A stretch of 64,000 nucleotides of DNA from Chitinophagales bacterium (GCA_038243445.1 JBBSRB010000001.1:9949-73948), one strand, 5' to 3'. Positions 8,492-63,436 are shown, numbered from the stretch's first letter. Notes: generated by a model not told the origin, from the sequence alone. Program-made: numbers and translations.

Positions 8492-9766
8492 ATGAATACT
8501 TCCGATATATTTTCCCTTGCTTCCCGCACTGTTCGCGGCAACAAGCTGCGCACAGCCATTACAGTAGCTATTATAGCTTTTGGTATTATGGCGCTTATTG
8601 GCATTATTACCGCCATACAGGCTATGAGTCAAAAATTTACGGAGAGTTTTTCTACCATGGGCGCCAATGGTTTTACAATTCGCTACAAGGAACGCAACTT
8701 CAGCATTGGCAATAATACTTCGGAATTAAAAGTATCAAAAAAGGGTGCTAAGAAAGAAAAAAAGTCAAGCTTAGGCAAGCCGTTGTTAATAGATGAAGCA
8801 GAATCGTTTGTAAAGCAATATCGTTTCCCCGCCCGCGTGGGGATTTCCGTTTCTGCTACGCGAGCCGCCATAATTAACTTCGGTTCTAAAAAAACATCAC
8901 CTAATGTTTCCTTATTTGGGGGCGATGAAAATTATCTTTTGTTAAACGGGCTAAGCCTGGAAGCGGGAAGAAATTTCACGCGACAGGAAATTCAGTCTTC
9001 AACCAACGTATGCCTTCTGGGGTACGATGTAGCCCAAAAGTTATTTAAGAACAATCCCGAAAAAGCTGTGAACAATGTAGTGCGCGTTAACGGTGCACCT
9101 TACCGCGTTATTGGCGTTTTGGAAAGCCGGGGATCTTCGTTTGGTTTTAGTCGCGATAATGTGGCCATTACAGGTTACCGGAATATTAAACGAAATTTTA
9201 ATTCAGGGGCTTCTTTTGTTATTGGCGTGATGGCTGATGATATTAACCAGGTAGAGGAAGGCATGGGTGAGGCCGAAGGCGTATTTCGGTCGATACGAAA
9301 AATAAACACAACAGAAGAAAGCAACTTTGCACTTGACCGCAGCGACAGCGTTGCCGAAAAGGCAATGAACAGCCTTGGGTTTTTAACAGGCGCGGCTACT
9401 GTAATTGGGCTTATTACGTTAATTGGTGCCGCTATCGGGTTAATGAATATTATGCTTGTTTCGGTTACCGAACGAACAAAAGAAGTAGGCTTAATAAAAG
9501 CCATTGGAGGAAAAAGCAAAACGGTACGTCAGCAATTTTTAATGGAGGCTATCATTATCAGCATTCTTGGTGCGGTCATTGGAATAATTTTAGGGATATT
9601 GGTAGGAAATTTATTTTCGATGCTTTTGGGTACAGGCTTTGTGGTGCCCTGGGATTGGGTGGGTTATGGCATTTTAATCTGTACCGTTGTTGGCCTGCTG
9701 GCGGGCTCGTACCCCGCATGGAAAGCGGGCAAACTAAATCCTATAGAAGCCCTTCGGTACGAGTAG
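8492..9766 (+). CDS. ABC transporter permease, MacB/FtsX family
   Basis: N-terminal TM, periplasmic domain, IGLMNIMLVSVTERTKEVGLIKAIG and terminal LNPIEALRYE. Confidence 0.9.
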   Translation: MNTSDIFSLASRTVRGNKLRTAITVAIIAFGIMALIGIITAIQAMSQKFTESFSTMGANGFTIRYKERNFSIGNNTSELKVSKKGAKKEKKSSLGKPLLIDEAESFVKQYRFPARVGISVSATRAAIINFGSKKTSPNVSLFGGDENYLLLNGLSLEAGRNFTRQEIQSSTNVCLLGYDVAQKLFKNNPEKAVNNVVRVNGAPYRVIGVLESRGSSFGFSRDNVAITGYRNIKRNFNSGASFVIGVMADDINQVEEGMGEAEGVFRSIRKINTTEESNFALDRSDSVAEKAMNSLGFLTGAATVIGLITLIGAAIGLMNIMLVSVTERTKEVGLIKAIGGKSKTVRQQFLMEAIIISILGAVIGIILGILVGNLFSMLLGTGFVVPWDWVGYGILICTVVGLLAGSYPAWKAGKLNPIEALRYE

Positions 9767-10170
9767 CTAGCAGGTAATAATTCCCCACCCTTTTGCCACC
9801 CTTTACTTTGTTCTAACAAAAAAAAATTGTAGTTGTGCTGCCAAAAAACCTTTCAAAAAGGGGTAGGACAGCTTTAAATAAAATAGCAAAACCCTTTCAT
9901 GCAGCGGAGCAGCAAAAGCATTTTTTAATAATTTTCTTCTTCATTAAGTTTTCTTTCGCCAAGCAAGTGTATCTTTCAATCTTAATAATTGATTAACAAA
10001 TAAAACAAGTAGAAAAAAAAGCGAATCTTTTTTAAACTTCACGTATAAAAAGTAACAGTTCTAAAAAAAAAAAACATTGCAACAAACATTGAATGCTTTT
10101 TTTCAGTAGAATTGTAATCTCTTAAATAAGCTCACATTCTTAAAATCAAAAACAACTAAAAATTACGATC

Positions 10171-11043
10171 ATGGCAGAGCAAAGACCAATTGCAGCAACA
10201 GGAACAACAACTTCGGCGAAGGCTACATCTGTTCAACCCAAAAAAAGCAGTAACCTTATTTCATGGCTTGCACCAATTGGTTGTATCCTGGCCGGTTATA
10301 TTGTGTGGCGTTATTTAATGGGTGCCGATTCGGGTTTTAAACAACCAGATCCCGCAGGTGGTTTCTGGCCGCACCACCTTGGTCCTAAAGACGCATTTCA
10401 TGCCATTTACGAAGGCGGAATTATTGTTCCCCTTCTGATTGGATTATTATTTATGGTAATTACTTTTTCTATTGAGCGCTTTTTAACCATAGGTAAAGCT
10501 CTTGGAAAAGGAAGCATCGCCGATTTTGTACGTAAAGTGCAATACCACCTTGCTAACCGTAACGTTGATGCAGCTTTAGCTGAGTGCGACAAGCAACGCG
10601 GTTCTGTAGCTAACGTAATGAAAGCCGGTTTGCGTCGTTACAAAGAAATGATTAATGTAACGGATTTAGATACAGAACAAAAGGTAATGTCTATTCAAAA
10701 AGAAGTAGAAGAAGCTACAGCTTTGGAATTACCGATGTTACAAAAAAACCTGGTGTTTCTTTCTACTATCGTTTCTCTGGGAACCCTTGTTGCCCTTTTA
10801 GGTACCGTGCTTGGTATGATCCGCTCGTTTGCAGCTCTTGGTGCAGAAGGTGGTGCAGGCGCGGCTTCTAACCTTGCAGTGGGTATTTCTGAAGCACTTT
10901 ATAACACCGCTTTAGGTATCGGTACATCGTCTTTGGCACTTGTTACGTACAACATGTTAACTACAAAAATCGACAGCATTACATACGGTATCGACGAGTC
11001 TGGTTTTACATTAACACAAAGTTTTGCTTCTACTTATAAATAA
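10171..11043 (+). CDS. exbB: MotA/TolQ/ExbB proton channel protein
   Basis: LGTLVALLGTVLGMIRSF and GISEALYNTALG; first gene of an exbB-exbD-exbD-tonB cluster. Confidence 0.9.
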   Translation: MAEQRPIAATGTTTSAKATSVQPKKSSNLISWLAPIGCILAGYIVWRYLMGADSGFKQPDPAGGFWPHHLGPKDAFHAIYEGGIIVPLLIGLLFMVITFSIERFLTIGKALGKGSIADFVRKVQYHLANRNVDAALAECDKQRGSVANVMKAGLRRYKEMINVTDLDTEQKVMSIQKEVEEATALELPMLQKNLVFLSTIVSLGTLVALLGTVLGMIRSFAALGAEGGAGAASNLAVGISEALYNTALGIGTSSLALVTYNMLTTKIDSITYGIDESGFTLTQSFASTYK

Positions 11044-11124
11044 GTAGCAGCTAACTTATGGAAAAAGCAAACTTGTGCATCTAAATACAAAATGATGCCT
11101 CTCAAAATAAAATTTGAATAGATT

Positions 11125-16457: not shown

Positions 16458-16690
16458 ATGGACGTGAAGGTGATCAGCGGTATTTACATACTTAGTTTGT
16501 TTACACCTAATGGCGATCGTTTGAATGATGAATGGCGTATTGATGATCTGGAATCGGTTGTACGCTAGAGAGGGGCGGGTGTTTAACCGAGCCAACGGGT
16601 TGGTGTATCATGTTCAAAATAAAGCGGCCATTTGAGTTAGGAGATTAAAAGGAATAGCACAGCCTTCAGGTGTATTCATTTTACTAGGAA
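16458..16690 (+). pseudogene. Remnant of a T9SS type-B C-terminal (CHU_C, gliding motility-associated) domain
   Basis: FTPNGDRLNDEWRIDDLE (16458-16568); then in another frame VFNRANGLVYH...*...KGIAQPSGVF. Confidence 0.7.
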
Positions 16691-16771
16691 AGCTTCAAAA
16701 AAGGGTACCCTTTTTAAATGTTTTATTACCCTTACCAGGTAAATTATCTTTTTTAAAGGAAAGGCACAGCA

Positions 16772-18997: not shown

Positions 18998-21900
18998 TTG
19001 CGTATCAAACCTCACATACTTACCCTACTTGCCTTTTTGACGTGTTTTGTAGCTTTTGCGCAGAATTATAGCGCCATTGAGTTTATAGAAAATAAAGGCC
19101 AATGGGATTCGCAGGTGCGCTTTACAGGCGCGGTGCCCGGCGGTGCTTTTTATATTCAATCTTCCGGCTTTACCGTTGTTCAAAACCATCCCAAAGAATG
19201 GGCGCAGTTGCGCGAACAAATGCATGCTCACCAGCCAAAAGATGCAAAAAAGGGTAACAAAGAGAGCGAAAACCTGCCGGCACTTACAAAACTCCGATCG
19301 CATGCCTATAAAGTAAGTTTTGTAAATGCCGCTCTAAAACCTTTGATTGTTGCCGATAAACCGCTTGCTACCTACAATAATTATTTTATTGGAAACGATC
19401 CTACTAAATGGGCAACTGATTGTAAAATTTACCAGGGCATAACGCTGCAGGAGATCTATCCAAATGTTGATGTTCGCTATTACGCCCACAACGGACAATT
19501 AAAATACGATTTGATTGTACGACCTGGAGCCGACGTTTCTAAAATTGGATTGAAGTACGAGGGAGTTGATAAGCTTGAAATTAAAAATAAGGAATTGGTT
19601 GTTGGTACTTCCGTTGGATCGGTGAAGGAGCTATCGCCATACAGCTATCAATTTCTTGAAAAAGGTAAAAAAGAAGTTTCGGTAAAATACAAACTTGAAG
19701 GAAATATTGTTCGCTTCGATGTAAAGGGCTACGATCCTTCAAAAACCCTCATTATTGATCCTACTTTTATTTTTGCTTCTTACTCCGGCAGCACAGTAGA
19801 TAACTGGGGTTTTACCGCTACTTACGGCCCAGATGGCAGCATGTATGGTGGCGGAATTGTTTTTGGGCAGGGCTTTCCAACAAATGTGGGTGCGTACGAT
19901 CAAACCTTTAGCTCCGGCGGCTCTTTTTGTGGGTCATCAAGCACTGTAGATATTGGAATTATTAAATTATCGCCGGACGGAGTAAGCCGGATTTATGCTA
20001 CTTATATTGGCGGGAATGGAGTAGATCAGCCACATAGCTTAATTGTAGATGAAGGAGGAAATTTGGTATTAGCCGGAAGATCTGATGCTGCAGATTATCC
20101 TACAACAGGCACGGGCCTAATTGGCCCGGGCGGCAACTTTGATATTGTGGTAACCAAACTAAACGCCTCCGGCAGTAAGCTCCTGGGTTCCAAACGAATT
20201 GGCGGATCAGGTGATGATGGCGTAAATATTTCGCCCTGCCATAGTACCGCTCAATCGTTACAGCAAAACTACGGCGATGGCGGCCGTAGCGAAATTATTC
20301 TGGATGGTGCAGGAAATATTTACGTGGCTTCAAGTACGCAATCAACCAACTTTCCGGCTACGGCAGGTGCTTTTCAAAAAACTGCAGGTGGCAAGCAAGA
20401 CGGAGTAATTCTAAAATTTCCGCCCGATGTTTCTTCCCTGACCTTTGGTACTTACATTGGTGGTACTGGCGACGATGCCGCTTATGTACTTTCAATAAAC
20501 CCCACCAACAACCAGTTGTATGTAGCCGGTGGCACAGCAAGTACTAATTTTCCAGGGATACAGGCTTCTTCGCTAAACAAAACCAACCAGGGTATTGATG
20601 GATATGTTTCTATTATAAGTAACAATGGTTCCTCTTTAATCAAATCAACTTACCTGGGCACCGCAGAAACCGACCAGGTATATGGGCTTAAATTCGATCA
20701 TGCGGGCTTTCCCTACGTAGCAGGACAAACGGGTGGTAACTGGCCCATTATAAACGCTGCCTGGGGCACTGCTGGTGCACCTCAATTCATTGCAAAGCTT
20801 CAACCCGATCTTTCAGCCTTTGTTTATTCTACCCGTTTTGGCACTAAAAGCGCCGTTCCAAATATTTCGCCTGTTGCTTTTTTGGTTGATCGTTGTGAGA
20901 ACGTTTATGTTTCCGGCTGGGGAGGCGTAGTTAATGCCGGCTACAAATCGGCGGGCACAACGGGTTTGCCAATTGTAAACGGTCTTGGACTTACCCGAAA
21001 TGATGGAAGTGATTTTTACTTTTTTGTGCTAAAGAAAAATGCAAGCGCCCAGCTCTATGGCGATGTTTTTGGTCAGTATGGCGGTGGAGCCGATCATGTG
21101 GATGGCGGCACCAGCCGCTTTGATGAAGACGGCGTTATTTACCAGGCCATGTGTGCTAATTGCGGTGGCGGTCCTGGTATGCCGGCAGGCGGCTCATGGT
21201 CGCCAACAAACGCATCCGGAGGCCGTTGCAATTTAGGCATGGTCAAAATTGCCTTAAACCTTGCAGGCACCGCCGCGGGCATTCAACCTTCCATCAATGG
21301 GGTTCCGCGCGATTCGTCGGGTTGTATTCCCTTAACAGTAGATTTTAGAGATACGTTGTTAAATGCGGTTACCTACGAATGGGATTTTACCGGGGATGGC
21401 ATTACCGATCAAATTACCACAGCGCCAAATGCATCGTACACCTACACAGCAATTGGCAAATACAAAGTAAGACTGATAGCGGTAGATTCTACAAGTTGCA
21501 ACATGCGCGACACGTCCTTTGTAACCATAAAGGCGGGTGATTTAGAAGGAAAAATAAGCCTGGCCGGAGAGCGGGTTCTTCCTTGCGAACAGTTCCAATA
21601 TAATTTTTCAAACACATCTCAACGCTCCCCAAAACAAGCTTTTGCTCCCCGCTCGTTTGTCTGGGATTTTGGTGATGGTTCTAAGCGGGATACAGTAGAC
21701 TTTTCATCGGCACCGGTACAGCACACTTTTGCCGCAGTAGGCACTTATAAGGTCAAATTGTATTTTCTTGATCCTGATTATTGCAATGCGCCCGATGTTG
21801 CCGAAATGACGGTTTCTTTCGGCCCCTTGAAAGCCGAATTTACAACTCCTCAAAAAGGGTGCGCACCATTCAATGCGGTCTTTACCAACACTTCTACAGG

Positions 21901-22597
21901 CGCTGCTTTGTATAGGTGGGATTTTGGCAATGGGCAAACATCAACCCAGGATAATCCAACTTATTTGTACACGCAGCCGGGCACCTATGTAATTACATTA
22001 ACGGCTACCAGCCCCGCACCTTGTTTTAAAGAAGATGTAACTACGCAAACAATTGTTGTTACAGCATCACCGGTTGCAAACTTTACTGCAGCACCACAGC
22101 CGCCGGTATTAAATACACCTATTGCATTTACCAATACTTCGTCGCCTGATGCCATTCGTTTTAAATGGAATTTTGGCGATGGAGATACACTGCTAACCAG
22201 CAACAGAAACACACCAGTACAGCACGATTTTAATGTAACCGGCCTTTATAACGTGTGCCTGACTGCATTTAATGCTGCAGGCTGCCGTGCCGATATCTGT
22301 ATGCCGGTGGAGGTAGAAGTGGAGGTTGCTTTAGACGTGCCCAATGCCTTTACTCCCGGCAGCGGCGATTTTAACAGCGTTATATTTCCGCGCGGGTACA
22401 ATATTGCCAAAATGACGTTTACCATTTGGAACAGGTGGGGACAAAAAATGTTTGAAACAGAAAGTCGTAACAGGGGTTGGGATGGCCGGTTTAAAGGCGT
22501 TTTGCAACCTATGGACGTGTATGCTTACACCCTTGAAGTGGAGTTTTTAGATGGCACTAAAACATCTAAAAAAGGGGATATTACATTAATTCGTTAA
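18998..22597 (+). CDS. T9SS type-B substrate: N-terminal FIENKGQW domain, SBBP-like propeller repeats, several PKD domains, CHU_C C-terminal domain
   Basis: FIENKGQW; repeated YSTYxGG-like/ATYIGG units; YxWDFGDG PKD motifs; VPNAFTP...IWNRWGQ...WDG C-terminus. TTG start. Confidence 0.88.
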   Translation: MRIKPHILTLLAFLTCFVAFAQNYSAIEFIENKGQWDSQVRFTGAVPGGAFYIQSSGFTVVQNHPKEWAQLREQMHAHQPKDAKKGNKESENLPALTKLRSHAYKVSFVNAALKPLIVADKPLATYNNYFIGNDPTKWATDCKIYQGITLQEIYPNVDVRYYAHNGQLKYDLIVRPGADVSKIGLKYEGVDKLEIKNKELVVGTSVGSVKELSPYSYQFLEKGKKEVSVKYKLEGNIVRFDVKGYDPSKTLIIDPTFIFASYSGSTVDNWGFTATYGPDGSMYGGGIVFGQGFPTNVGAYDQTFSSGGSFCGSSSTVDIGIIKLSPDGVSRIYATYIGGNGVDQPHSLIVDEGGNLVLAGRSDAADYPTTGTGLIGPGGNFDIVVTKLNASGSKLLGSKRIGGSGDDGVNISPCHSTAQSLQQNYGDGGRSEIILDGAGNIYVASSTQSTNFPATAGAFQKTAGGKQDGVILKFPPDVSSLTFGTYIGGTGDDAAYVLSINPTNNQLYVAGGTASTNFPGIQASSLNKTNQGIDGYVSIISNNGSSLIKSTYLGTAETDQVYGLKFDHAGFPYVAGQTGGNWPIINAAWGTAGAPQFIAKLQPDLSAFVYSTRFGTKSAVPNISPVAFLVDRCENVYVSGWGGVVNAGYKSAGTTGLPIVNGLGLTRNDGSDFYFFVLKKNASAQLYGDVFGQYGGGADHVDGGTSRFDEDGVIYQAMCANCGGGPGMPAGGSWSPTNASGGRCNLGMVKIALNLAGTAAGIQPSINGVPRDSSGCIPLTVDFRDTLLNAVTYEWDFTGDGITDQITTAPNASYTYTAIGKYKVRLIAVDSTSCNMRDTSFVTIKAGDLEGKISLAGERVLPCEQFQYNFSNTSQRSPKQAFAPRSFVWDFGDGSKRDTVDFSSAPVQHTFAAVGTYKVKLYFLDPDYCNAPDVAEMTVSFGPLKAEFTTPQKGCAPFNAVFTNTSTGAALYRWDFGNGQTSTQDNPTYLYTQPGTYVITLTATSPAPCFKEDVTTQTIVVTASPVANFTAAPQPPVLNTPIAFTNTSSPDAIRFKWNFGDGDTLLTSNRNTPVQHDFNVTGLYNVCLTAFNAAGCRADICMPVEVEVEVALDVPNAFTPGSGDFNSVIFPRGYNIAKMTFTIWNRWGQKMFETESRNRGWDGRFKGVLQPMDVYAYTLEVEFLDGTKTSKKGDITLIR

Positions 22598-23662: not shown

Positions 23663-23888
23663 TTACACCCTTTTTGAAGGGTTTTAACGCGTTTGTGGTT
23701 TGAAATTTGGTCGCTTAAGGTTGAATTTTAAAGGTTACCTGTGAGCGAAAAATATAATCTGTAGTGACTCTTGCCTGTGCGTGGGCCGGATAAACCGGTG
23801 GAGTTATCGGGTTGCCCTTGAATTTTTTGATTCTCTTTGTGTCAAGGCAAAAAGAAAAGCAGAATAAGATGCATTTTGCTAAAAAGAA

Positions 23889-26049: not shown

Positions 26050-26155
26050 TTGAATTCCTTGATTCTTATTTTATCGGAATACAATGAACAAACTGCAGCA
26101 TGCAGAGCCTGGCTAATTAACATCTGCTACCCCTTTTTCAATACATTTTAAAAGC

Positions 26156-26797: not shown

Positions 26798-28288
26798 ATG
26801 TCTCCAGTATTGTTGTTTTCTTTTGTAATAGGCTACTTTGCCATTTTGTTAGTGGTTGCTTATTTCACATCTCGAAATTCTAATAACGAATCTTTTTTCA
26901 TTGGAAATAAAAATTCCAATTGGATGCTGGTGGCCTTTGGTATGATAGGCACTTCGCTTAGCGGCGTTACGTTTGTAAGTGTGCCAGGTGCTGTTGGAAA
27001 GCAGTTTGGTGGCGGTTTTGAAGGGTTTACTTATTTTCAGATTGTAATTGGCTACGTAATTGGCTATGTGGTCATTGCCTACGTTTTATTGCCGCTTTAC
27101 TATCGTTTAAACCTTACTTCTATTTACAATTATTTAAGCAATCGTTTAGGTTTTGCATCGTATAAAACGGGCGCTTCGTTTTTTATTCTCTCACGCACTT
27201 TAGGTGCAACGGCAAGGCTTTATTTGGTGGTGGCTATTTTGCAGGAAGCAATACTTTCTTCTTTTGGAGTTCCGTTTTGGCTTACTACGCTGGTTATTTT
27301 AATAATGATTTTGTTATATACGTTTGAAGGCGGTGTAAAAACAATTGTTTGGACAGATACCTTGCAAACAACCTGCATGCTTGCAGGTTTGGTTATATGC
27401 ATAATCTACATTTTGCGATCGTTAAACCTCGATTTTAGCGAAGGTTTAAGCCAGCTATCAGAAGGCGGCTATACCACTATTTTTGTAAGCGATCCGAACA
27501 GCCGGCTGTTTTTTGTAAAACAAATAGTTGCAGGTGCTTTTATTACCATTACCATGACGGGCATGGACCAGGAAATGATGCAAAAAAATATTAGCGTAAA
27601 AACCCTTGGCGACTCGCAAAAAAACATGCTCACGTTTGCCATTATACAAGCTGTTGTAGTATTGATGTTTTTATTTTTAGGCGGTTTATTATACCTGTTT
27701 GCAACAGCAAATGGCGTGGCTGCCGCCGGCGATAAACTGTTTCCCACTGTGGCGCTGGAGCATATGTCGCCGTTTATTTCTATAGTGTTTATCATTGCAT
27801 TAATCTCTGCCCTTTTTCCAAGTGCCGATGGTGCTATTACAGCGCTTACTTCTTCTTTTTGTATTGATTTGTTGGGACTAAAACGTAGGGAAGACTGGGA
27901 TGAAAAAAAGAAACAAAACATACGAAAAAGGGTGCATTTTGTCTTTGCTGGTGTTTTCTTATTATTTGTAATGGTGTTTAAATGGGTAAATGATCCAAGT
28001 ATGATTGGCGTTATATTAAAGGTGGCTGCTTATACTTACGGGCCGCTGCTTGGGCTGTTTGCTTTTGGCATGCTTACCAAAAGAAGTGTTCGCGATAAAT
28101 GGGTGCCTTACATTTGTTTTGCATCGCCCATTATTAGCTTTATTATCGATAAGTTTCAAAAAGAGCTGTTCGGGTCTTTCGAAATAGGGCTGGAGCTATT
28201 GATTATTAACGGGCTTATTACTTTTGTAGGGCTGTTACTTGTATCCAAACCATCAACCCATTTACAGCAGGCTGAAACCGCTTTATAA
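26798..28288 (+). CDS. Sodium:solute symporter family protein
   Basis: SFFIGNK, GTSLSGVTFVSVPG, GGVKTIVWTD, MDQEMMQK; about 13 TM segments. Confidence 0.9.
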   Translation: MSPVLLFSFVIGYFAILLVVAYFTSRNSNNESFFIGNKNSNWMLVAFGMIGTSLSGVTFVSVPGAVGKQFGGGFEGFTYFQIVIGYVIGYVVIAYVLLPLYYRLNLTSIYNYLSNRLGFASYKTGASFFILSRTLGATARLYLVVAILQEAILSSFGVPFWLTTLVILIMILLYTFEGGVKTIVWTDTLQTTCMLAGLVICIIYILRSLNLDFSEGLSQLSEGGYTTIFVSDPNSRLFFVKQIVAGAFITITMTGMDQEMMQKNISVKTLGDSQKNMLTFAIIQAVVVLMFLFLGGLLYLFATANGVAAAGDKLFPTVALEHMSPFISIVFIIALISALFPSADGAITALTSSFCIDLLGLKRREDWDEKKKQNIRKRVHFVFAGVFLLFVMVFKWVNDPSMIGVILKVAAYTYGPLLGLFAFGMLTKRSVRDKWVPYICFASPIISFIIDKFQKELFGSFEIGLELLIINGLITFVGLLLVSKPSTHLQQAETAL

Positions 28289-28290: not shown

Positions 28291-28929
28291 ATGCACATTG
28301 TAAATCCTTTAGCCGAAAGTTATGCCGCCAAATACACAACGGCTGAAGATGCATTGATTGCAGAAGTGGCAGAATATACTATGGCAAACCGCGAGCATGC
28401 GCAAATGCTTAGCGGGCACTTGCAGGGAAAGCTTTTAGAGATGATCAGTTGTATGATTAAACCCGACCGCATTTTAGAAATTGGAACCTTTACAGGCTAC
28501 AGCGCACTTTGTCTTGCAAAAGGTTTAAAAAAGGGTGGGCAGTTACATACAATAGAAATCAGAAGCGAAGATGCAGAAAAGGCTCAAAGTTTTTTCAGCC
28601 GTTCATCTCAAAAAGAAAAAATAGTTTTGCACCTTGGCGATGCGGCAGAAATAATAAACAGACTACAAGAAACGTGGGATTTGGTTTTTATTGATGCAGA
28701 TAAAACAGGGTACATATCTTACTTTAACCAGGTTTTACCAAAACTGCGCACAAACGGTTTTATTTTAGCAGATAATGTGCTGTTTCACGGGCAGGTTTTA
28801 GAAAAAGAGGTAAAGGGCAAAAACGCTAAAGCCATTCAGGACTTTAACTATTTTATGCTGCAGCGTACCGACGTAGAAAAACTAATGCTTCCCGTGCGCG
28901 ATGGCTTGTTTTTAATCAGAAAAATGTAG
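28291..28929 (+). CDS. Class I SAM-dependent O-methyltransferase
   Basis: ILEIGTFTGYSA, DLVFIDADK, ADNVLFHG. Confidence 0.92.
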   Translation: MHIVNPLAESYAAKYTTAEDALIAEVAEYTMANREHAQMLSGHLQGKLLEMISCMIKPDRILEIGTFTGYSALCLAKGLKKGGQLHTIEIRSEDAEKAQSFFSRSSQKEKIVLHLGDAAEIINRLQETWDLVFIDADKTGYISYFNQVLPKLRTNGFILADNVLFHGQVLEKEVKGKNAKAIQDFNYFMLQRTDVEKLMLPVRDGLFLIRKM

Positions 28930-32477: not shown

Positions 32478-32592
32478 GCGTAAAACTGGTGCGGCTTGTT
32501 TAAAAAAGCTGGCGTAAAAACCCTTCAAAAAGGGTCACCTGTAATTGACTTTACCCCTTTTTTAAAGGTTTTTAAATAGTAGAAATGTTTTT

Positions 32593-41174: not shown

Positions 41175-41463
41175 TTATAAGTAGGAAATAATATTACCAA
41201 CGAAGATACAAACGGAAGGCCAGAGTTCTTTTTTGGGGCCGTAAATAATGGGGTCTACCCTTTTTTAAAGGTTTTGATTAACAAAGCGGCAAACGAAACA
41301 GCAAAGGTCTCATTTATTTTTATCAAAGAATTAATGATTGCTTGCCTCTTAAAATAAAGCCGCAGCTATTTTATACCAAAAGATTTAATCCTTTATTTTT
41401 AGGAATAAAGGATTAACCTACTGATTACAACTTGCCTGAAGATGATACCCTTTTTAAAGCCTT

Positions 41464-45736: not shown

Positions 45737-45848
45737 AACTTCGGCTTACTAATCTTCTGCGCATATTATATAGTGTTGGGGTAAATCTTCAAATACTATT
45801 TTCTAATTGGTACACACCCCTTTTTAAACTGTTTTTAATTTAGATACG

Positions 45849-49200: not shown

Positions 49201-49669
49201 CGGGAGTTATTTAGAAAAGTAAGGAGCAAATCTATGCCTAAAACAAATGTTATCACTATTTACAGCCCGGCCTTTTCTGCGCCGTGGCGTTTTTGCCAGG
49301 TACCCTTTTTATAAGGTTTTTGTAAAAGAACCGCTTTCATTTTCTTAACCGTTAAGCGCACTTTGTCCGTTCCGTTTCGTCCGTTTGCTGCCTGTACCCT
49401 TTTTTAAATGTTTTTAAAGTACAAAGATTGAACTCGTTCAATTGCAAGTTTCAAATCAAAAAAAAATAACACGGCGACGGCAGAACAATAAAGGAAAGGC
49501 GAAGGCGATTTTCTAAATTTTTTTACGCAGGCAGGAAAAGCTCTGAAAAAGGCCCCGGCTTTATTAAAGTGTTAACAAGGGCTGCCCTTTTTTCAATGCA
49601 TCTAAACAAAAGTTTAACCGTCTTAGTTACAGCAGTATAGTAATTTTAAACCGAACAATATTTACAGGC

Positions 49670-53483: not shown

Positions 53484-53855
53484 GTTGAAAATAGTAAAGC
53501 TACAAGCCCCTTTTTTAAGAATTGGCTTAAACGATAATGCAAAGATGTTTCTTTTCTTTGCAGACGGTTAAGTAAAATAAAAACCCCTTGAAAAGGGTAG
53601 TAGCAGGTAAAATTTAAGGCCGAGGCTTACCATTAAACGTTCTTCTTTCAACTCGAAAAATTAACGCTGCTAATCTATTTAATATAGAACTGGTGCAGCT
53701 TAAAAAAGAACCTTTTTCAAGGGTTTTCATCGGCAAAACAGTGCATCAAATATAAAAGTTATTCTAAACCTTAAAAAAGGCATACCTCACTGTTGATGAA
53801 AGCCTTTTTTAAGAATTTTTGTCAAAGCCGATAAAAGTGTATCGCCGTAAAACAA

Positions 53856-55279: not shown

Positions 55280-58135
55280 ATGAAGGAAGCAGTCGAAAAG
55301 AAAAGTACACAGAAGAAAAAATTAGTAGCGGATCCAATAGTTATAAAAGGAGCACGGGTTCACAATTTAAAAAACGTTGATGTTTCCTTTCCCCGAAACA
55401 GCTTAATTGTCGTTACCGGCGTATCGGGTTCCGGTAAATCATCGCTTACTATTGATACGCTTTATGCCGAAGGGCAGCGCCGCTATGCAGAAAGTTTAAG
55501 TGCTTACGTGCGACAGTTTTTAAACCGCATGGATAAGCCCGATGTTGATTACATAAAAGGACTTTCACCTGCCATTGCCATTGAACAAAAAGTAATTACC
55601 CGCACCCCGCGCAGCACCGTTGGCAGCATGACGGAAATATACGATTACCTGCGCCTGCTGTTTGCCCGCATTGGTCAAACCATTTCCCCTATTTCGGGCC
55701 GAACAGTAAAAAAAGATGATGTAAAAGAGGTGCTGGATGCTATTAAGGCAATGAAAGTAGGAACCAAAGTTTTTATTTTGGCTGCCTTTAAGCAACACCG
55801 CTATCGAAATGTAAAAGAAGAATTGAACATTTTAATGCAAAAAGGTTTTTCGCGTATTTATGTATCGGCGCTTTCCCGTACCCAAAATAAAAAACAACCT
55901 GAAAGTGGCACCACTTATCGTATAGAAGATTTGATGGAATCGGAGGAAGAATTGAACTTGGCGTTTATTAATCCCCAAAATGTATTTGTATTAATTGATC
56001 GTATAGTAGCAAAAGAATTGGATGAAGATGATTTGCACCGCCTCGGCGATTCCATCGGCACAGCTTTTTACGAAGGCGAAGGCGATGTGTTTGTAGAAGC
56101 AGATGGCGAAAACTTATTGGGCTTTAATAATCGTTTTGAGCTGGATGGAATTCAGTTTGAAGAACCAAGTCCCAACCTGTTTTCGTTTAACAATCCTTTT
56201 GGCGCCTGCCCTGTTTGCGAGGGTTTTTCAATGGTTTTAGGTATAGACGAAGACCTTGTAATACCCAATAAATTGCTTAGCGTTTACGAAGGCGCCGTAG
56301 CACCGTGGAAAGGCGAAAAGCTGGGTCAGTGGAAAGAAAGGTTTGTAAAAGCGGCCCGTCATTCCCACTTTCCGGTGCATACGCCCATTGCCGATTTAAC
56401 GCCCGAACAATACAACACTCTTTGGAAGGGCAACGAAACCCTGGACGGCATTGATGCCTTTTTTAAAGAGGTAGAACAAAACTTATATAAAGTTCAATAC
56501 CGTGTTTTACTTAGCCGGTTTCGGGGCAAAACAAAGTGCCCCGAGTGCGACGGTACCCGCCTGCGCAAAGAAGCGTTGTATGTAAAAATTCAAGGCAAAC
56601 ACATTGGCGAATTAAGCAGCCTGCCGGTGAAAGATTTGAAAGTTTGGTTTGATGAAGCGGTAAAAAAATTTTCAGAATTTGAGCAAACCGTAGCCAAACG
56701 AATTCAGATAGAAATTACACACCGGATAGATACGCTGTTGAAAGTAGGTCTTGGTTACTTATCGTTAAACCGGCTGGCAAATACATTAAGCGGCGGCGAA
56801 AGTCAGCGCATACAATTAACCCGCAGTTTAGGTAGCAACTTAACCAATTCCTTATATATTTTAGATGAACCGTCTATTGGTTTACACTCCCGCGATACCG
56901 CAAACCTGATTAGGGTTTTAAAAGAGTTGCGCGATTTGGGAAATATTGTTGTTGTTGTGGAGCACGATGAAATGATGATGCGCGAAGCGGATTATATTAT
57001 TGATATGGGTCCGCTGGCAGCGCACCTCGGCGGCGAAGTAGTGGCTACCGGTAATTACACCGAATTAATAGCCAACCCTAAGAGCTTAACTGGTAAATAT
57101 CTAAAAGGCGAATTAAGTATCGATCCGCCAAAAGAGGTGCGCAAATGGACTTCTTCCATTGTTGTTGAAGGCGCCCGTCATCATAATTTAAAAGGACTTG
57201 ACGTTCAATTTCCGCTAAACGTTTTGTGCGTTGTAAGTGGTGTTAGCGGCAGCGGAAAAACAACTTTAATCAAGCATATTTTATATCCTGCTTTGCAAAA
57301 ACTCAAAGGCGAAGCCGGCGATAAAACAGGCTTGCACAAAGTTCTTTCAGGCGATACAGAAGCTATTTCTTCGGTAGAAATGGTCGATCAAAATCCAATT
57401 GGCAAATCATCGCGAAGCAACCCGGTAACCTATGTGCAGGCATGGAACGGCGTGCGCGATTTATATGCGGCGCAGCCCCTAAGTAAGATTCGTGGTTTTG
57501 CCGCAAAACATTTTTCGTTTAATGTAGATGGCGGCCGTTGCGATGCCTGCAAAGGCGAAGGTGAAAAAGTAGTGGAAATGCAGTTTTTGGCCGATGTGCA
57601 CCTTACCTGCGAAGTTTGCGGCGGCAAAAAGTTTAAAGAAGAAGTGTTGGAAGTTCAGTTTAAAGGCAAAAGTGTTTTTGATGTGTTGGAAATGAGTGTT
57701 GACGAAGCAGTTGCTTTTTTTGAAGGGGAAAAAAGCATTGTGTCGGCTATAAAACCCTTAAGCGATGTAGGTTTGGGTTATGTAAAACTGGGGCAATCGT
57801 CCGACACGCTTTCGGGCGGCGAAGCGCAACGCGTAAAGCTGGCCACGTTTCTGGGCAAAGGAAAAGCCGCCGGTAAAGTGTTGTTTATTTTTGATGAACC
57901 AACTACCGGGCTTCACTTTCACGATATAAAAAAACTGCTGCTTTCGTTTAATGCGTTAATAGATGGGGGACATTCTATTTTAGTTATTGAACACAATACC
58001 GATGTTATAAAAAGTGCCGACTGGGTAATTGATTTGGGCCCTGAAGCAGGCGCCGATGGTGGTTATTTGGTTTATGCCGGAGAACCATCAGGGTTAAAAA
58101 AGAAGAAAGAAAGCCATACTGGTGAATATTTGTAA
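55280..58135 (+). CDS. uvrA: Excinuclease ABC subunit A
   Basis: GARVHNLKNV, two Walker A motifs GVSGSGKS/T, LSGGESQR and LSGGEAQR, Zn fingers. ATG 55280 is preferred over the track start at 55112. Confidence 0.96.
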   Translation: MKEAVEKKSTQKKKLVADPIVIKGARVHNLKNVDVSFPRNSLIVVTGVSGSGKSSLTIDTLYAEGQRRYAESLSAYVRQFLNRMDKPDVDYIKGLSPAIAIEQKVITRTPRSTVGSMTEIYDYLRLLFARIGQTISPISGRTVKKDDVKEVLDAIKAMKVGTKVFILAAFKQHRYRNVKEELNILMQKGFSRIYVSALSRTQNKKQPESGTTYRIEDLMESEEELNLAFINPQNVFVLIDRIVAKELDEDDLHRLGDSIGTAFYEGEGDVFVEADGENLLGFNNRFELDGIQFEEPSPNLFSFNNPFGACPVCEGFSMVLGIDEDLVIPNKLLSVYEGAVAPWKGEKLGQWKERFVKAARHSHFPVHTPIADLTPEQYNTLWKGNETLDGIDAFFKEVEQNLYKVQYRVLLSRFRGKTKCPECDGTRLRKEALYVKIQGKHIGELSSLPVKDLKVWFDEAVKKFSEFEQTVAKRIQIEITHRIDTLLKVGLGYLSLNRLANTLSGGESQRIQLTRSLGSNLTNSLYILDEPSIGLHSRDTANLIRVLKELRDLGNIVVVVEHDEMMMREADYIIDMGPLAAHLGGEVVATGNYTELIANPKSLTGKYLKGELSIDPPKEVRKWTSSIVVEGARHHNLKGLDVQFPLNVLCVVSGVSGSGKTTLIKHILYPALQKLKGEAGDKTGLHKVLSGDTEAISSVEMVDQNPIGKSSRSNPVTYVQAWNGVRDLYAAQPLSKIRGFAAKHFSFNVDGGRCDACKGEGEKVVEMQFLADVHLTCEVCGGKKFKEEVLEVQFKGKSVFDVLEMSVDEAVAFFEGEKSIVSAIKPLSDVGLGYVKLGQSSDTLSGGEAQRVKLATFLGKGKAAGKVLFIFDEPTTGLHFHDIKKLLLSFNALIDGGHSILVIEHNTDVIKSADWVIDLGPEAGADGGYLVYAGEPSGLKKKKESHTGEYL

Positions 58136-58155
58136 AACAGGCAAAAAAGGGACTT

Positions 58156-59085
58156 TCACAAAATCAGATACGGCGAAATCTTTTCAAAAATGGTTTCATC
58201 AATTAGTACAATGTTTTTTATTTCATCTACGCTTTTGTAAGCACCGTGCTGGTTTCGGTATTCCACAATAGCATTGGCTAAATTCCATCTAATATACGGA
58301 TGCACTTTTAATTCATCTTTTGTAGCGGTATTAATATTCAGCTTTTTAATTGCAGAGGCATTAACCTGTAAAAAAGGTTTAATCTTTTGAAAGGTAGAAT
58401 CAGGTAATCCATACGTTTCCTTAATTTGAGTTACCGAATAAAAGCCACCTAACTTTTCGCGGAAGGTGATAATGCGGGCTGCCAGTTTGCTGCCAATTCC
58501 AGGCAAGGCAATAAAAGCCGAAGTATCTGCGCTGTTTACATCGGCAATGGAAAAGTTTCGTTCCTTTTTTTCGTACGGAGCTGGTGAAGCGTACCCCTTT
58601 TTAAAGGGTTTTAGGCTGCTTTCAAGTTGAATATAATCTGCTACCCGATCATAAAAACCTTGCGGTAAGCCCCAAATCTTTTTTAGGTCTTCCGGCTTAT
58701 AAAACTTCCCACCCTTGTTTCGATAGTTTACAATTGTTTTTGCCGTTCTGCTGCTTAAACCCAGTCGTTGCCATCCTTCAGCCGGCAATATATTTGGGTC
58801 AAAAGCAAAAAGTTCTCCTTTGGTAAAATCTTTCCGTTCAGAAACTTCGTATTGAAATCCATCCTGACCTCTTGCTTCGGAGTATTTTACCCCTTTTTCA
58901 TACCTTTTTAAAAGGGTATCGGTTGCTTCTTCCAAAACAGAGTTGGCAACAATTGGCGCGGAAGAAGGCGGAAACAACTTTGGACTAAAAACAATAAAAG
59001 CTACAATGGCCACCACGGCAAGACCACCAATCCGGTCTTTTTTGCTGAAGTGCAAATAATCTTCGTAAAGGTTTTTCCAACTCAT
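58156..59085 (-). CDS. Membrane-anchored helix-hairpin-helix DNA-binding protein, ComEA-like
   Basis: N-terminal TM; three HhH-pair units (FDPN..., LPGIGSKLA..., LNINTAT..EL..HPYI). Confidence 0.85.
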   Translation of the reverse strand: MSWKNLYEDYLHFSKKDRIGGLAVVAIVAFIVFSPKLFPPSSAPIVANSVLEEATDTLLKRYEKGVKYSEARGQDGFQYEVSERKDFTKGELFAFDPNILPAEGWQRLGLSSRTAKTIVNYRNKGGKFYKPEDLKKIWGLPQGFYDRVADYIQLESSLKPFKKGYASPAPYEKKERNFSIADVNSADTSAFIALPGIGSKLAARIITFREKLGGFYSVTQIKETYGLPDSTFQKIKPFLQVNASAIKKLNINTATKDELKVHPYIRWNLANAIVEYRNQHGAYKSVDEIKNIVLIDETIFEKISPYLIL

Positions 59086-62300: not shown

Positions 62301-63133
62301 TAAACGTTTTACTGCACAACTACAGCATTAAGTACAACGAAGAATTAGGCCGTTACAAACGCGAAAAATTCAACATTTCTATTGGTGATGAATTGCCTGC
62401 AGGCGTTTTAAAGCTGGCTAAAGTTTATATAGCTGTAAAGCGTAAATTAAAAGTGGGCGATAAAATGGCCGGTCGCCACGGAAACAAAGGAATTGTAGCC
62501 AAAATTGTTCGCCAGGAAGATATGCCGTTTTTAGAAGACGGAACGCCGGTGGATATAGTATTAAATCCGCTGGGTGTACCAAGCCGTATGAATTTAGGGC
62601 AGATTTACGAAACTGTTTTAGGTTGGGCTGGCGAAAAATTAGGTTTACGTTTTGCAACGCCAATTTTTGATGGTGCATCGGTAGAAGATATTGCCGGTTA
62701 CATCAGCCAGGCAGATTTACCAACCTTTGGGCACACCTATTTGTTTGATGGCGAAACCGGCGAACGTTTTCACCAAAAAGCAACGGTAGGTATCATCTAC
62801 ATTATTAAGTTGCACCACATGGTAGATGATAAAATGCACGCAAGAAGCATTGGGCCATACAGCTTAATTACGCAGCAACCGTTAGGTGGTAAAGCACAGT
62901 TTGGTGGTCAGCGTTTTGGAGAAATGGAAGTATGGGCACTCGAAGCTTATGGCGCCGCTAACATTCTTCAGGAATTGCTCACCCTTAAATCGGATGATAT
63001 TATTGGACGCGCAAAAACCTACGAAGCCATTGTAAAAGGCGAAAACATTCCTCGTGCCGGTATCCCCGAATCGTTTAATGTACTGGTGCACGAGCTAAGA
63101 GGTTTAGGGTTAGATCTTAAGTTTCACGATTAA
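59327..63133 (+). CDS. rpoB: RNA polymerase beta subunit
   Basis: [54 protein letters not shown]. Confidence 0.99.
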
Positions 63134-63249
63134 AAACCCGGTGCCTCCGGCGAGTACATCAAAGGAGAAACGCCTGGTTAGTAAAAACAGTTCTTTAAAA
63201 TAAAGTTGATGATTATGTGACCAGCAGAAGTAATACTATGTTGCTTCTG

Positions 63250-63436
63250 TTGCGTCGCACTCTTCAGCGTTCAGTTGGTAAATAAGCAGGTACAAACACA
63301 ACAAAAAGGCCCCCTTTATTGCATGTTTTAGCAGCACAGCTAAAACGCTTTAAAAAGGGTTGTTACAAAAAGTAATTGGCCCCTTTCAGGCATGTTTGCT
63401 GCGTTAAATTACCAACTGTACAAGAGTGCGACGCAA
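63250..63436. repeat. Inverted-repeat element in the rpoB-rpoC spacer
   Basis: TTGCGTCGCACTCTT (63250-64) and AAGAGTGCGACGCAA (63422-36) form a perfect 15-bp IR; inner CAGTTGGTAA/TTACCAACTG is a perfect 10-bp IR. Confidence 0.75.

What the first reader, a model, noticed from the sequence alone, without database searches (positions are those of the whole stretch)
8728..63360. Abundant dispersed motif (ACCCTTTTTnAAAGGTTTT) resembling an uptake sequence or chromosome-wide binding site
Seen: at least 22 exact matches to CCC-T5-N6-T4, 11 per strand, about one per 3 kb, plus about 10 near matches (e.g. 16689, 16708, 23979, 26130, 29562, 53579, 53709, 53801). Thirteen exact copies lie in intergenic or stop-codon DNA, a small part of the window; nine are in CDSs. 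Intergenic copies often have an AAAGG/GAAGG spacer, giving a quasi-dyad CCCTT-N4-AAGGG (perfect ACCCTT-N4-AAGGGT at 23667 and 32520). An independent-base estimate gives well under one expected copy. Known: the Pasteurellaceae USS is a GC core followed by two phased T-tracts, and USS/DUS occur about once per 1-1.2 kb, on both strands, in genes and in terminators. Inference: this may be an undescribed DNA uptake signal, or a site for a nucleoid or global regulatory protein, in this lineage. Caveat: 8 of the 9 coding copies read as K-x-x-K-K-G/R, so AAA-Lys codon bias may explain part of that set.
Basis: partly seen in the sequence, partly recalled or inferred. Interest (0 to 1): 0.82.

Follow-up and report, generated by a model that had tools for sequence, protein, structure and literature searches.

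The report
Lineage-specific uptake-signal-like DNA motif
A 21-base DNA word (TAC-CCC-TTTTT-6 bases-TTTT) occurs about 100 times more often than chance in this soil Chitinophagaceae chromosome and its closest relative, is kept at the same sites in both while absent from other relatives, and behaves most like the DNA uptake sequences known so far only from Haemophilus and Neisseria.

Summary
The window holds 22 exact CCCTTTTT-N6-TTTT copies, 11 per strand. Null models expect 0.2-0.9; a synonymous-codon shuffle expects 0.5 in genes (9 seen), and a homopolymer-preserving shuffle expects 0.8 between genes (11 seen).

The motif is about 21 bp, asymmetric, and has no conserved flanks. It is absent from 1.39 Mb of 80 related Chitinophagaceae loci and from 78 kb of the nearest outgroups. 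The closest relative, a JGI metagenome contig, carries 35 copies in 59 kb.

Twenty-one of the 22 window copies have a perfect copy at the same site and orientation there, although intergenic flanks differ at 67% of positions.

Copies in genes sit in hypervariable protein segments. They arose by point substitutions, some non-synonymous. One keeps the DNA word in a different reading frame. The two lineages show dialect differences at the same motif positions.

So this is a DNA-level signal read in trans. It is not codon bias, a MITE, a REP element or a simple terminator. Head-to-head pairs form terminator-like hairpins.

The best fit is a DNA-uptake-type sequence (confidence about 0.4). A nucleoid-protein site array is the main rival. 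No uptake experiment exists.

The parts
8728..8745 (-). Motif copy inside the MacB/FtsX permease gene (coding strand reads K-V-S-K-K-G).
   Evidence: Perfect orthologous copy in the sister (L208:1477). The outgroup has the same amino acids, but AAA AAA GGT gives one mismatch. The motif was completed by a synonymous AAA>AAG change.
9845..9862 (-). Intergenic copy, 79 nt after the MacB stop codon.
   Evidence: Orthologous copy at L208:2585, with unalignable flanks.
16688..16725 (.). Two abutting one-mismatch copies, head to head (AAAAAGGGTACCCTTTTT), upstream of recG.
   Evidence: The sister has a perfect copy at the site of the second one (L208:9763).
19237..19254 (-). Copy in the T9SS cargo gene, in a variable segment with an indel.
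   Evidence: Orthologous copy at L208:12292. The outgroups L209 and L210 have different residues and a 4-codon gap there.
22559..22576 (-). Copy near the 3' end of the T9SS cargo gene.
   Evidence: Orthologous copy at L208:15625. Relative to the outgroups it was made by one non-synonymous change (A>T, GCA>ACA) and one synonymous change (GGT>GGG).
23668..23685 (+). Intergenic copy 6 nt after the PorP/SprF stop codon; one of the few with a real 6-bp dyad.
   Evidence: -6.5 kcal/mol. Orthologous copy at L208:16736.
26131..26148 (+). One-mismatch (decayed) copy in a convergent intergenic region.
   Evidence: The sister has two perfect copies here (L208:19027 and 19052).
27915..27932 (-). Copy in the sodium:solute symporter gene.
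   Evidence: Orthologous copy at L208:20835.
28518..28535 (-). Copy in the O-methyltransferase gene.
   Evidence: Orthologous copy at L208:21438.
32517..32572 (.). Head-to-head pair (32517- and 32555+) between convergent genes; folds into a long hairpin with A and U tails on both strands.
   Evidence: -19.5 and -19.9 kcal/mol. The orthologous pair L082:21629-/21668+ folds at -36.9 kcal/mol, z -7.7.
33103..33120 (-). The one copy in T-rich-sense orientation inside a gene (227-aa protein, P-F-L-V-C-F).
   Evidence: Orthologous copy at L082:21080. Six outgroups have unrelated residues at these positions and no length change.
37102..37215 (.). Pair 37102- and 37198+ in a convergent intergenic region, plus a decayed copy at 37226-.
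   Evidence: The orthologous copies L082:17180+ and 17053- stand out as conserved islands.
39268..39285 (+). Copy in the 1282-aa gene of unknown function (K-G-S-K-K-G).
   Evidence: Same offset from the gene start (1889 nt) in the sister (L082:15017). The spacer bases differ and the fixed bases do not. The outgroup reads TKGNGNG.
41258..41275 (+). Intergenic copy between the MetRS gene and the 1282-aa gene.
   Evidence: ortholog L082:13034.
41448..41465 (+). Copy overlapping the MetRS stop codon.
   Evidence: ortholog L082:12192, also at the stop codon.
45818..45835 (+). Single copy in a convergent intergenic region; no fold.
   Evidence: -1.3 kcal/mol, z +1.25.
49303..49414 (+). Two tandem copies (49303 and 49397) in the divergent region upstream of the kup promoter.
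   Evidence: Only the two copies and the promoter-proximal DNA align with the sister.
53580..53597 (-). One-mismatch (decayed) copy.
   Evidence: It aligns with a perfect sister copy (L082:203).
58134..58151 (-). Copy overlapping the uvrA stop codon, 4 nt after the stop of the ComEA-family gene.
   Evidence: ortholog L204:10939; absent in outgroups L205 and L207.
58595..58612 (+). Copy in a linker of the ComEA-family gene.
   Evidence: The window reads L-K-P-F-K-K-G-Y and the sister reads P-K-T-Y-Q-K-G-Y. The DNA motif is kept, but AAAAAGGG is read in a different frame. The segment is hypervariable in 40 homologs.
58891..58908 (+). Second copy in the ComEA-family gene.
   Evidence: ortholog L204:10178; the outgroups differ.
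63342..63359 (-). Intergenic copy downstream of rpoB.
   Evidence: The sister has a perfect copy (L204:5777) and a near copy (L204:5914) in the same intergenic region and orientation. Site-level orthology is not resolved.
58156..59085 (-). Context only: gene for a ComEA-family protein with three helix-hairpin-helix domains. It is the one competence-type gene in the window.
   Evidence: Pfam HHH_3, three stretches, E 5.9e-46. TIGR00426, 96.4 bits against a cutoff of 53.1. Homologs are common in Chitinophagaceae that lack the motif.

Best explanation
The motif is a DNA-level signal of about 21 bp: T-A-C, CCC, TTTTT, a 6-base spacer ending in G/C, then TTTT. The two T-tracts start 11 bp apart, about one helical turn. 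A trans-acting protein of this lineage most likely reads it.

I think it is most likely a DNA-uptake-type sequence. Under that model, competent cells of the clade preferentially bind and take up fragments that carry the word. Recombination of that DNA then steadily pushes near matches towards the consensus (molecular drive). Purifying selection on proteins confines the copies to intergenic DNA and to tolerant, poorly conserved protein segments.

Closely spaced head-to-head pairs in convergent intergenic regions secondarily form long hairpins with A and U tails, which could act as bidirectional terminators, as paired DUS and USS do.

Shown here:
- over-representation
- clade restriction
- site conservation
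- origin by substitution
- independence from reading frame
- lineage dialects
- hairpin potential of the pairs

Inferred:
- that there is a protein reader
- that the process is uptake plus recombination
- that the pairs terminate transcription
For: 1. Abundance. The window has 22 copies against 0.2-0.9 expected. In genes, 9 are seen against 0.5 under a synonymous-codon shuffle. Between genes, 11 are seen against 0.84 under a run-preserving shuffle.

2. Narrow clade.
- 2 copies in 1.386 Mb of 80 Chitinophagaceae loci
- 0 in 78 kb of the nearest outgroups (MetRS 82%, RecG 82-83% identical)
- 35 in 59.3 kb of the sister contig (MetRS 85%, RecG 91% identical)

3. Conservation. Of the 22 window copies, 21 have a perfect sister copy at the same site and orientation; overall DNA identity is 79%. 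Around intergenic copies, flanks differ at 67% of positions and spacer bases at 50%. The 12 fixed bases are identical in all 21 pairs by construction.

4. DNA-level constraint.
- All three reading frames are used.
- One orthologous copy is kept in a shifted frame with different amino acids.
- There is no sequence information outside positions -3 to +18.

5. Origin by point substitution, with no length change, at hypervariable residues. This includes a sister-only gain inside recG through two amino-acid replacements. Findlay and Redfield report the same pattern for USS and DUS (PMC2817400).

6. Consensus peak. The sister has 24 perfect against 8 one-mismatch copies in 37 kb.

7. Dialects. At orthologous intergenic sites, position 11 is A in the window and T in the sister at 8 of 12 sites. 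Position -1 is A against C at 5 of 12.

8. Comparison with known uptake sequences. Density is one per 1.7-2.9 kb, and 31-41% of copies lie in ORFs. ORF shares for known uptake sequences are 34.5-65% (PMC2817400). The architecture of a G/C core plus two T-tracts matches the H. influenzae USS (PMC3458573).

9. Pairs. Head-to-head pairs fold strongly.

10. Background. A ComEA-family gene is present. Natural competence with a preference for own DNA, but no defined uptake sequence, is reported in another Bacteroidota genus (PMC7965970).
Against: - There is no experimental evidence of competence or biased uptake in this lineage. No RNA or isolate data exist: the window DNA was found in only one soil metagenome.
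- The ComEA-family gene is also present in relatives without the motif, so it does not explain the specificity. No other competence gene is in view.
- The intergenic bias is steeper than for the H. influenzae USS: 10-fold in the window and about 20-fold in the sister.
- Retention of 21 of 22 copies at 79% DNA identity is very high for a weak drive. It would also fit site-specific function.
- The window lineage has no private perfect copies and has 26 one-mismatch copies, so the process may be weak or lost there.
- Strand bias relative to replication could not be tested on 64 kb.
Confidence: 0.4

Rival explanations
1. The motif is an array of binding sites for a lineage-specific nucleoid-associated or architectural DNA-binding protein. 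Selection for chromosome organisation or insulation of transcription units keeps each site, as proposed for HIP1 in cyanobacteria.
For: - Site-by-site retention is very high (21 of 22).
- Copies concentrate between transcription units, upstream of promoters and in 5 of 8 convergent intergenic regions (7 of 8 counting one-mismatch copies).
- Phased T-tracts suggest bent DNA.
- Dialects fit co-evolution with a reader protein.
- HIP1 shows similar conservation and is argued to act in nucleoid structure (PMC5861425).
Against: - Up to three copies sit within 250 bp of one intergenic region, which looks redundant for a structural site.
- The sister gained a copy inside recG at the cost of two amino-acid changes, only 900 bp from an intergenic copy.
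- The near-perfect consensus at thousands of sites implied genome-wide is atypical for nucleoid proteins.
- No candidate protein was identified.
Confidence: 0.25
2. The motif is a transcription termination or insulation element. The T-rich orientation (CCCUUUUU...UUUU) stops RNA polymerase, alone or with a factor. It is therefore avoided on sense strands and collects at gene ends.
For: - 8 of 9 coding copies have the T-rich strand antisense.
- 5 of 8 convergent intergenic regions hold a perfect copy, and 7 of 8 counting one-mismatch copies.
- Head-to-head pairs fold into hairpins with U tails.
- Few canonical terminators are predicted in these regions.
Against: - 12 of 22 single copies have no fold.
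- The orientation bias in genes matches the 2-2.5:1 bias of near matches in outgroup genes, so composition explains it.
- Sense-oriented copies are conserved in the 227-aa gene, and one was newly gained in recG.
- Copies lie upstream of promoters in divergent regions.
- A canonical hairpin terminator sits beside motif copies in the sister.
- Single intergenic copies show no consistent orientation towards the nearest gene.
Confidence: 0.1
3. The motif is a very short REP- or MITE-like repeat, spread by transposition or ectopic gene conversion.
For: - It is lineage-specific, mostly intergenic, and sometimes occurs in inverted pairs at gene 3' ends, as REPINs do.
- Some sister-only copies lie in blocks that are missing from the window.
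Against: - Nothing is conserved beyond 21 bp.
- The unit is not a palindrome.
- 31-41% of copies are in genes.
- Coding copies arose by substitution without any length change.
- Tandem, head-to-head and tail-to-tail arrangements all occur.
- No Y1-transposase gene is in the window.
Confidence: 0.08
4. The motif results from a biased mutation or repair process, for example one linked to a lineage-specific DNA methyltransferase or short-patch repair. Such a process would create and restore the word without any role in uptake or binding.
For: - Copies originate by substitution, peak at the consensus and are restricted to the clade.
- HIP1 has been linked to orphan methyltransferases (PMC4390886).
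Against: - The word is long, asymmetric and bipartite with a free spacer, unlike the short palindromic targets typical of methyltransferases and short-patch repair (my own knowledge).
- No such enzyme is in view.
- For HIP1, conservation was taken as evidence for selection rather than repair bias (PMC5861425).
Confidence: 0.07
5. The motif is a chance product of AAA-lysine codon bias and homopolymer-rich intergenic DNA.
For: A-rich near matches are 2-2.5 times more common than T-rich ones on coding strands of related genomes.
Against: - The synonymous-codon shuffle expects 0.5 against 9 seen, and the run-preserving shuffle expects 0.84 against 11 seen.
- Related genomes of similar G+C content have essentially none.
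Confidence: 0.01

Closest known systems
Pasteurellaceae uptake signal sequence (USS; H. influenzae AAGTGCGGT core plus two T-rich tracts)
   Same: - A short G/C core followed by two T-tracts about a helical turn apart.
- About one copy per 1-3 kb on both strands.
- Copies in genes at poorly conserved residues, made by point substitution.
- Pairs at terminators.
- Subtype differences between sister lineages (Hin and Apl types).
(PMC3458573, PMC2817400)
   Different: - Unrelated sequence and a different phylum (Bacteroidota).
- The core here is only CCC plus flanking bases.
- Far stronger intergenic bias: 59-69% of copies are intergenic, against 35% for H. influenzae.
Neisseriaceae DNA uptake sequence (DUS, with dialects, read by the minor pilin ComP)
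   Same: - Share of copies in ORFs (34.5% in N. meningitidis against 31-41% here).
- Inverted pairs that form terminators in intergenic DNA.
- Lineage dialects that differ at a few positions.
(PMC2817400; Frye et al. 2013 as cited in PMC7965970)
   Different: - The DUS is a contiguous 10-12-mer without T-tracts.
- No ComP-like pilin or type IV pilus gene is in view here.
- Function is untested.
HIP1 (GCGATCGC) of cyanobacteria
   Same: - Over-represented 15- to 300-fold.
- Conserved within and between ORFs across species.
- Not a peptide or RNA motif.
- Function long unknown.
(PMC5861425)
   Different: - HIP1 is an 8-bp palindrome that overlaps methyltransferase sites and is spread across a phylum.
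- This motif is 21 bp, asymmetric and bipartite, and is confined to two sister lineages.
REP/REPIN elements with RAYT transposases
   Same: Lineage-specific, abundant, enriched at gene 3' ends, and sometimes in inverted pairs.
   Different: - REP units are imperfect palindromes and extragenic.
- Here the unit does not fold, a third or more of copies lie in genes, and copies arise by substitution.

Membership tests
DNA uptake sequences (USS/DUS) | Competent cells preferentially take up DNA that carries the motif. | not testable with these tools
   There is no isolate and no uptake data. The window DNA is found in only one soil metagenome.
DNA uptake sequences (USS/DUS) | Genomic over-representation of about one copy per kb, on both strands. 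| tested here: met
   22 copies in 64 kb (11 + and 11 -) and 35 in 59.3 kb, against fewer than 1 expected.
DNA uptake sequences (USS/DUS) | Restriction to one lineage, with related lineages lacking it or carrying a dialect. | tested here: met
   Absent from 1.39 Mb plus 78 kb of relatives. Window and sister differ systematically at positions -1, 9 and 11.
DNA uptake sequences (USS/DUS) | Coding copies arise by substitution at poorly conserved residues, in several reading frames. | tested here: met
DNA uptake sequences (USS/DUS) | The genome encodes competence machinery and a specific receptor. | tested here: inconclusive
   Only a ComEA-family gene is present in the window, and motif-less relatives share it. 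The rest of the genome was not available.
DNA uptake sequences (USS/DUS) | Under-representation in recently acquired genes. | tested here: inconclusive
   The lineage-variable segments have no perfect copy inside them: window 14.7-16.6 kb, L208 7.6-9.7 kb and the GAF-gene insertion in L082. Only about 2 would be expected.
REP/REPIN | Each unit is an imperfect palindrome that forms a hairpin. | tested here: not met
   12 of 22 units fold at 0 kcal/mol.
REP/REPIN | Extragenic location and an associated RAYT gene. | tested here: not met
   9 of 22 copies (window) and 11 of 35 (sister) are in genes. No Y1 transposase appears among the annotated window genes. A genome-wide check was not possible.
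MITE | A body of tens to hundreds of bp bounded by terminal inverted repeats and target-site duplications. | tested here: not met
   Information content falls to zero outside positions -3 to +18, and intergenic flanks differ at 67% of positions.
Intrinsic (Rho-independent) terminator | A G+C-rich hairpin immediately followed by a U-tract, downstream of a gene on the sense strand. | tested here: not met
   Single copies do not fold and show no consistent orientation. Only head-to-head pairs fold: -19.5/-19.9 kcal/mol (z -2.3/-1.9) in the window and -36.9 kcal/mol (z -7.7) in the sister.
HIP1-like iterated palindrome | A short palindrome that coincides with a methyltransferase target. | tested here: not met
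   The motif is asymmetric and bipartite. Methylation could not be tested.
Chi/KOPS-type polar sequences | Strong strand skew that switches at the origin and terminus of replication. | tested here: inconclusive
   64 kb holds no ori or ter. Orientation flips between neighbouring copies (for example 58134- and 58595+), and intergenic copies split 5 - to 8 +, which argues against polarity.

The most novel reading that the evidence does not exclude
This is the first sequence-specific DNA uptake signal outside the Proteobacteria: a Bacteroidota uptake sequence with lineage dialects. That would imply a new, non-ComP receptor, and self-preferential transformation in soil Chitinophagaceae.
Probability: 0.38. 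Interest if true: 0.88.

Novelty: new variant of a known kind. Interest (0 to 1): 0.72.

Why it matters
Sequence-specific DNA uptake is established only in Pasteurellaceae and Neisseriaceae. How such signals arise, and what reads them, is still debated.

In Bacteroidota, Riemerella columbina prefers its own DNA, but no uptake sequence has been defined (PMC7965970).

Here a motif with the full genomic signature of an uptake sequence appears in one young clade and is absent from a close outgroup (MetRS 82% identical). That gives three things:
1. A concrete 21-bp candidate to test in uptake assays.
3. A view of an early stage of motif accumulation: dialects, gains that cost amino-acid changes, and decay in one lineage.

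If the motif instead marks nucleoid-protein sites, it is a Bacteroidota counterpart of HIP1 and is still undescribed.

Tried and rejected
1. Protein or codon explanation. Rejected: mixed reading frames, one copy kept in a shifted frame, and the synonymous-codon shuffle.

2. Single-copy hairpin or terminator. Rejected by folding. The pattern scan for terminators was not above shuffles, 33 against 26.8.

3. A transcription-linked meaning for the orientation bias in genes. Rejected because outgroup genes show the same 2-2.5:1 bias in near matches.

4. A longer repeat or MITE. Rejected by the information profile.

5. Known RNA families. None in the window at Rfam gathering thresholds.

6. Metagenome scan with an inverted-pair pattern.

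7. Viral contigs. Three isolated single hits, no enrichment.

8. Sequencing runs. Only one soil metagenome holds the window and there is no RNA run, so transcript ends could not be examined.

9. Bacteroidota promoter (TTTG and TAnnTTTG). By eye the motif does not fit, and copies lie at no fixed distance from start codons.

10. Literature search for uptake sequences or dispersed motifs in Bacteroidota or Chitinophagaceae. Nothing relevant.

Full report
**Observation**

The expected number is far lower under every null model:

| Null model | Expected | Observed |
|---|---|---|
| Dinucleotide shuffles, whole window | 0.19 | 22 |
| Markov order 1 / 3 / 5 / 7, whole window | 0.20 / 0.20 / 0.41 / 0.89 | 22 |
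| Synonymous-codon shuffle within genes | 0.50 (max 3 of 500) | 9 in CDS |
| Homopolymer-run shuffle of intergenic DNA | 0.84 (max 4) | 11 intergenic |

The 8-mer CCCTTTTT occurs 44 times. Composition-matched 8-mers occur 6-13 times, and related genomes have about 5 per 64 kb. The 6-base spacing is specific.

The coding copies also use all three reading frames.

**Where the window comes from**

The genes are ordinary chromosomal genes of a member of the Bacteroidota: nuo subunits, ExbB/ExbD/TonB, MnmE, RecG, type IX secretion cargo and PorP/SprF, MetRS, UvrA and RpoB. The nearest named relatives are Flavisolibacter species, with MetRS 79-81% identical. The window DNA itself is found in only one soil metagenome. 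No RNA run holds it.

**Anatomy of the motif**

Aligning the copies shows information from position -3 to +18 and none beyond.

- In the closest relative the consensus is T-A-C-CCC-TTTTT-G-A-T-R-G-G-TTTT.
- In the window the spacer consensus is [T/G]-A-A-R-G-G.
- Position 14 is always G or C, and position -1 is never G.
- The two T-tracts start 11 bp apart.

The unit is asymmetric.

**Distribution among relatives**

| Sequence set | Relation to window | Length | Perfect copies |
|---|---|---|---|
| Window | - | 64 kb | 22 |
| 80 GTDB loci around MetRS | Chitinophagaceae, MetRS 68-79% | 1.386 Mb | 2 |
| Nearest outgroups (MAG ERZ24825753 and two Logan contigs) | MetRS 82%, RecG 82-83% | 78 kb | 0 |
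| Sister, JGI contig Ga0307271_100015 | syntenic; MetRS 85%, RecG 91% | 59.3 kb fetched | 35 |

The motif therefore belongs to one narrow clade.

**Conservation**

Alignment of the window with the sister contig gives 79% DNA identity overall. Twenty-one of the 22 window copies have a perfect copy at the same site and in the same orientation. The last one (63342) has a copy in the same intergenic region.

Around intergenic copies the flanks differ at 67% of positions, which is close to saturation. Spacer bases differ at 50%. The copies stand out as islands in otherwise unalignable DNA.

The sister has additional copies. Four of them align with one-mismatch or otherwise degenerate remnants in the window (16708, 26131, 53508, 53580). 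The window has no private perfect copy. The sister's distribution is sharply peaked, with 24 perfect against 8 one-mismatch copies in 37 kb; the window's is flatter, 22 against 26.

**Copies inside genes**

All coding copies examined lie in hypervariable protein segments.

- In the 227-aa protein, the 1282-aa protein, the type IX cargo protein and the ComEA-family protein, outgroups have unrelated residues at these positions.
- The copies arose by substitution without any length change.
- In the MacB permease the residues K-V-S-K-K-G are ancestral, and a synonymous AAA-to-AAG change completed the motif.
- At 22559 one non-synonymous and one synonymous change completed it.
- In the ComEA-family gene the window reads L-K-P-F-K-K-G-Y and the sister reads P-K-T-Y-Q-K-G-Y. 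The DNA word is retained, but AAAAAGGG is read in a different frame.
- The sister alone gained a copy inside recG, in the T-rich-sense orientation, through two amino-acid replacements.

These facts place the constraint on the DNA, not on the protein. They also show that new copies still arise by point mutation.

**Orientation**

Eight of the nine coding copies have the A-rich strand as the sense strand. Near matches (2-3 mismatches) in 1.15 Mb of outgroup genes show the same bias, 2-2.5 to 1. Coding composition therefore explains it, and no transcription-linked meaning is needed. Intergenic copies split 5 to 8 between strands, and orientation flips between neighbours.

**Dialects**

At orthologous intergenic sites the two lineages differ in the same direction at the same motif positions:

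- position 11: A in the window and T in the sister, at 8 of 12 sites
- position -1: A against C, at 5 of 12 sites
- position 9: T against G, at 4 of 12 sites

Parallel change at many independent loci points to a trans-acting reader whose preference differs between the lineages.

**Location and pairs**

The window is 88% coding, yet 13 of its 22 copies are intergenic or at stop codons. In the sister, 24 of 35 copies lie in 5.2 kb of intergenic DNA, one per about 220 bp. Five of eight convergent intergenic regions in the window hold a perfect copy, and seven of eight if one-mismatch copies are counted. Copies also lie upstream of promoters in divergent regions.

Tandem, head-to-head and tail-to-tail arrangements all occur. 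Closely spaced head-to-head pairs fold into long hairpins with A and U tails:

- -36.9 kcal/mol, z -7.7, in the sister
- -19.5 and -19.9 kcal/mol on the two strands in the window

These could act as bidirectional terminators. Single copies do not fold. The pattern scan for canonical terminators was not above shuffles.

**Interpretation**

The data exclude the following:

- chance
- codon bias
- a peptide motif
- a MITE or other long repeat
- a REP-type palindrome
- a simple intrinsic terminator

What remains is a short DNA word recognised in trans. It accumulates and is maintained by point substitution, and protein constraints limit where it can sit.

This is the genomic signature described for uptake sequences. 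Findlay and Redfield found them at poorly conserved residues, with 65%, 49% and 34.5% of copies in ORFs in three species (PMC2817400). Here the shares are 41% and 31%. The H. influenzae signal is a short core followed by two T-rich tracts, and only four core bases are critical (PMC3458573). That architecture resembles CCC plus two phased T-tracts. Neisserial DUS also show dialects and terminator-forming pairs.

Natural competence exists in Bacteroidota. Riemerella columbina prefers its own DNA, yet no uptake sequence has been defined there (PMC7965970). The window encodes a ComEA-family protein with three helix-hairpin-helix domains. Motif-less relatives have it too, so this shows capacity for DNA binding and not specificity.

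I put the uptake-signal mechanism at about 0.4. The main rival, at 0.25, is an array of sites for a nucleoid or architectural protein, as argued for HIP1 (PMC5861425). Two things favour it: the near-complete retention of sites and the steep intergenic bias. Two things count against it: the local redundancy of copies, and a costly gain inside recG close to an existing intergenic copy. Termination or insulation, REP-like spread and repair-linked drive are less likely, for the reasons given under each rival.

**Novelty**

I found no description of this motif, or of any uptake sequence, in Bacteroidota. The phenomenon is of a known kind, the USS/DUS/HIP1 class. The sequence, the phylum and the presumed reader are new. 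The contrast between two motif-bearing lineages and a close motif-less outgroup makes the question directly testable.

**Limits**

- All evidence is comparative and rests on about 123 kb from two lineages.
- Replication polarity could not be tested.
- Depletion in genomic islands could be checked only on about 4.6 kb of lineage-variable DNA, which was inconclusive.
- The competence gene inventory and transcript ends could not be examined.

Noticed in passing
window 58156-59085 (-): The ComEA-family protein with three helix-hairpin-helix domains is only 73% identical to its sister ortholog. Other proteins in the window are 82-95% identical to theirs. It carries two motif copies in hypervariable linkers and a third just after its stop codon.
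   Followed up: partly
window 14720-16770; L208 7576-9800; L209 7827-9700: The segment between mnmE and recG holds different genes in each lineage. The window has an excisionase-like HTH protein and an SH3 protein. The sister has a response regulator and a CHU_C protein. The outgroup has an ORF6N protein and a glycosyltransferase. It is a gene-turnover hotspot, and it has no perfect motif copy inside it.
   Followed up: partly
window 16772-16946: The recG ORF from GTG 16772 gives 724 aa, 58 residues longer than the sister's called protein (666 aa). A TTG at 16946 matches the sister's start. If that is the true start, the paired near copies at 16688 and 16708 and the CCCTTTTT at 16926 all lie upstream of recG.
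   Followed up: partly
L208 12020-15663: In the sister contig the type IX cargo gene, one 1199-aa ORF in the window, is called as two overlapping genes of 1029 and 201 aa. This suggests a frameshift, either real or an assembly error.
   Followed up: no
L082 12213-12755: The sister has a 180-aa GAF-domain gene inserted between the MetRS gene and the 1281-aa gene. The window and the outgroup L083 lack it. Motif copies flank it, but none lies inside.
   Followed up: no
window 37326-41174 (-), 45849-47000 (-), 49670-52183 (+): Several sizeable conserved proteins (1282, 383, 505 and 328 aa) match no Pfam or NCBIfam family.
   Followed up: no
window 43791-45736 (+): Two tandem S66 (LD-carboxypeptidase-type) peptidase paralogs whose ORFs overlap by 64 nt. 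The same pair is present in the sister and in the outgroup.
   Followed up: no
window 47177-47202: A canonical hairpin terminator lies downstream of kup (9-bp stem followed by TTTTTT). Its stem is built from CCCTTTT and AAAAGGG. It is not a full motif copy.
   Followed up: partly
L119 and L167; L097 and L150 (metagenome contigs): Unrelated organisms carry their own dispersed repeats that end in CCCTTTTT, for example TACCCATCCCCCCCCTTTTTT and CAGGATAGCCCTTTTTAGTTATTTTTTTTT in inverted pairs.
   Followed up: no
window 53429-54451: About 1 kb with no ORF of 100 aa or more holds four degenerate motif copies (53508, 53580, 53710, 53802). In the sister the corresponding region holds a 91-aa ORF.
   Followed up: no
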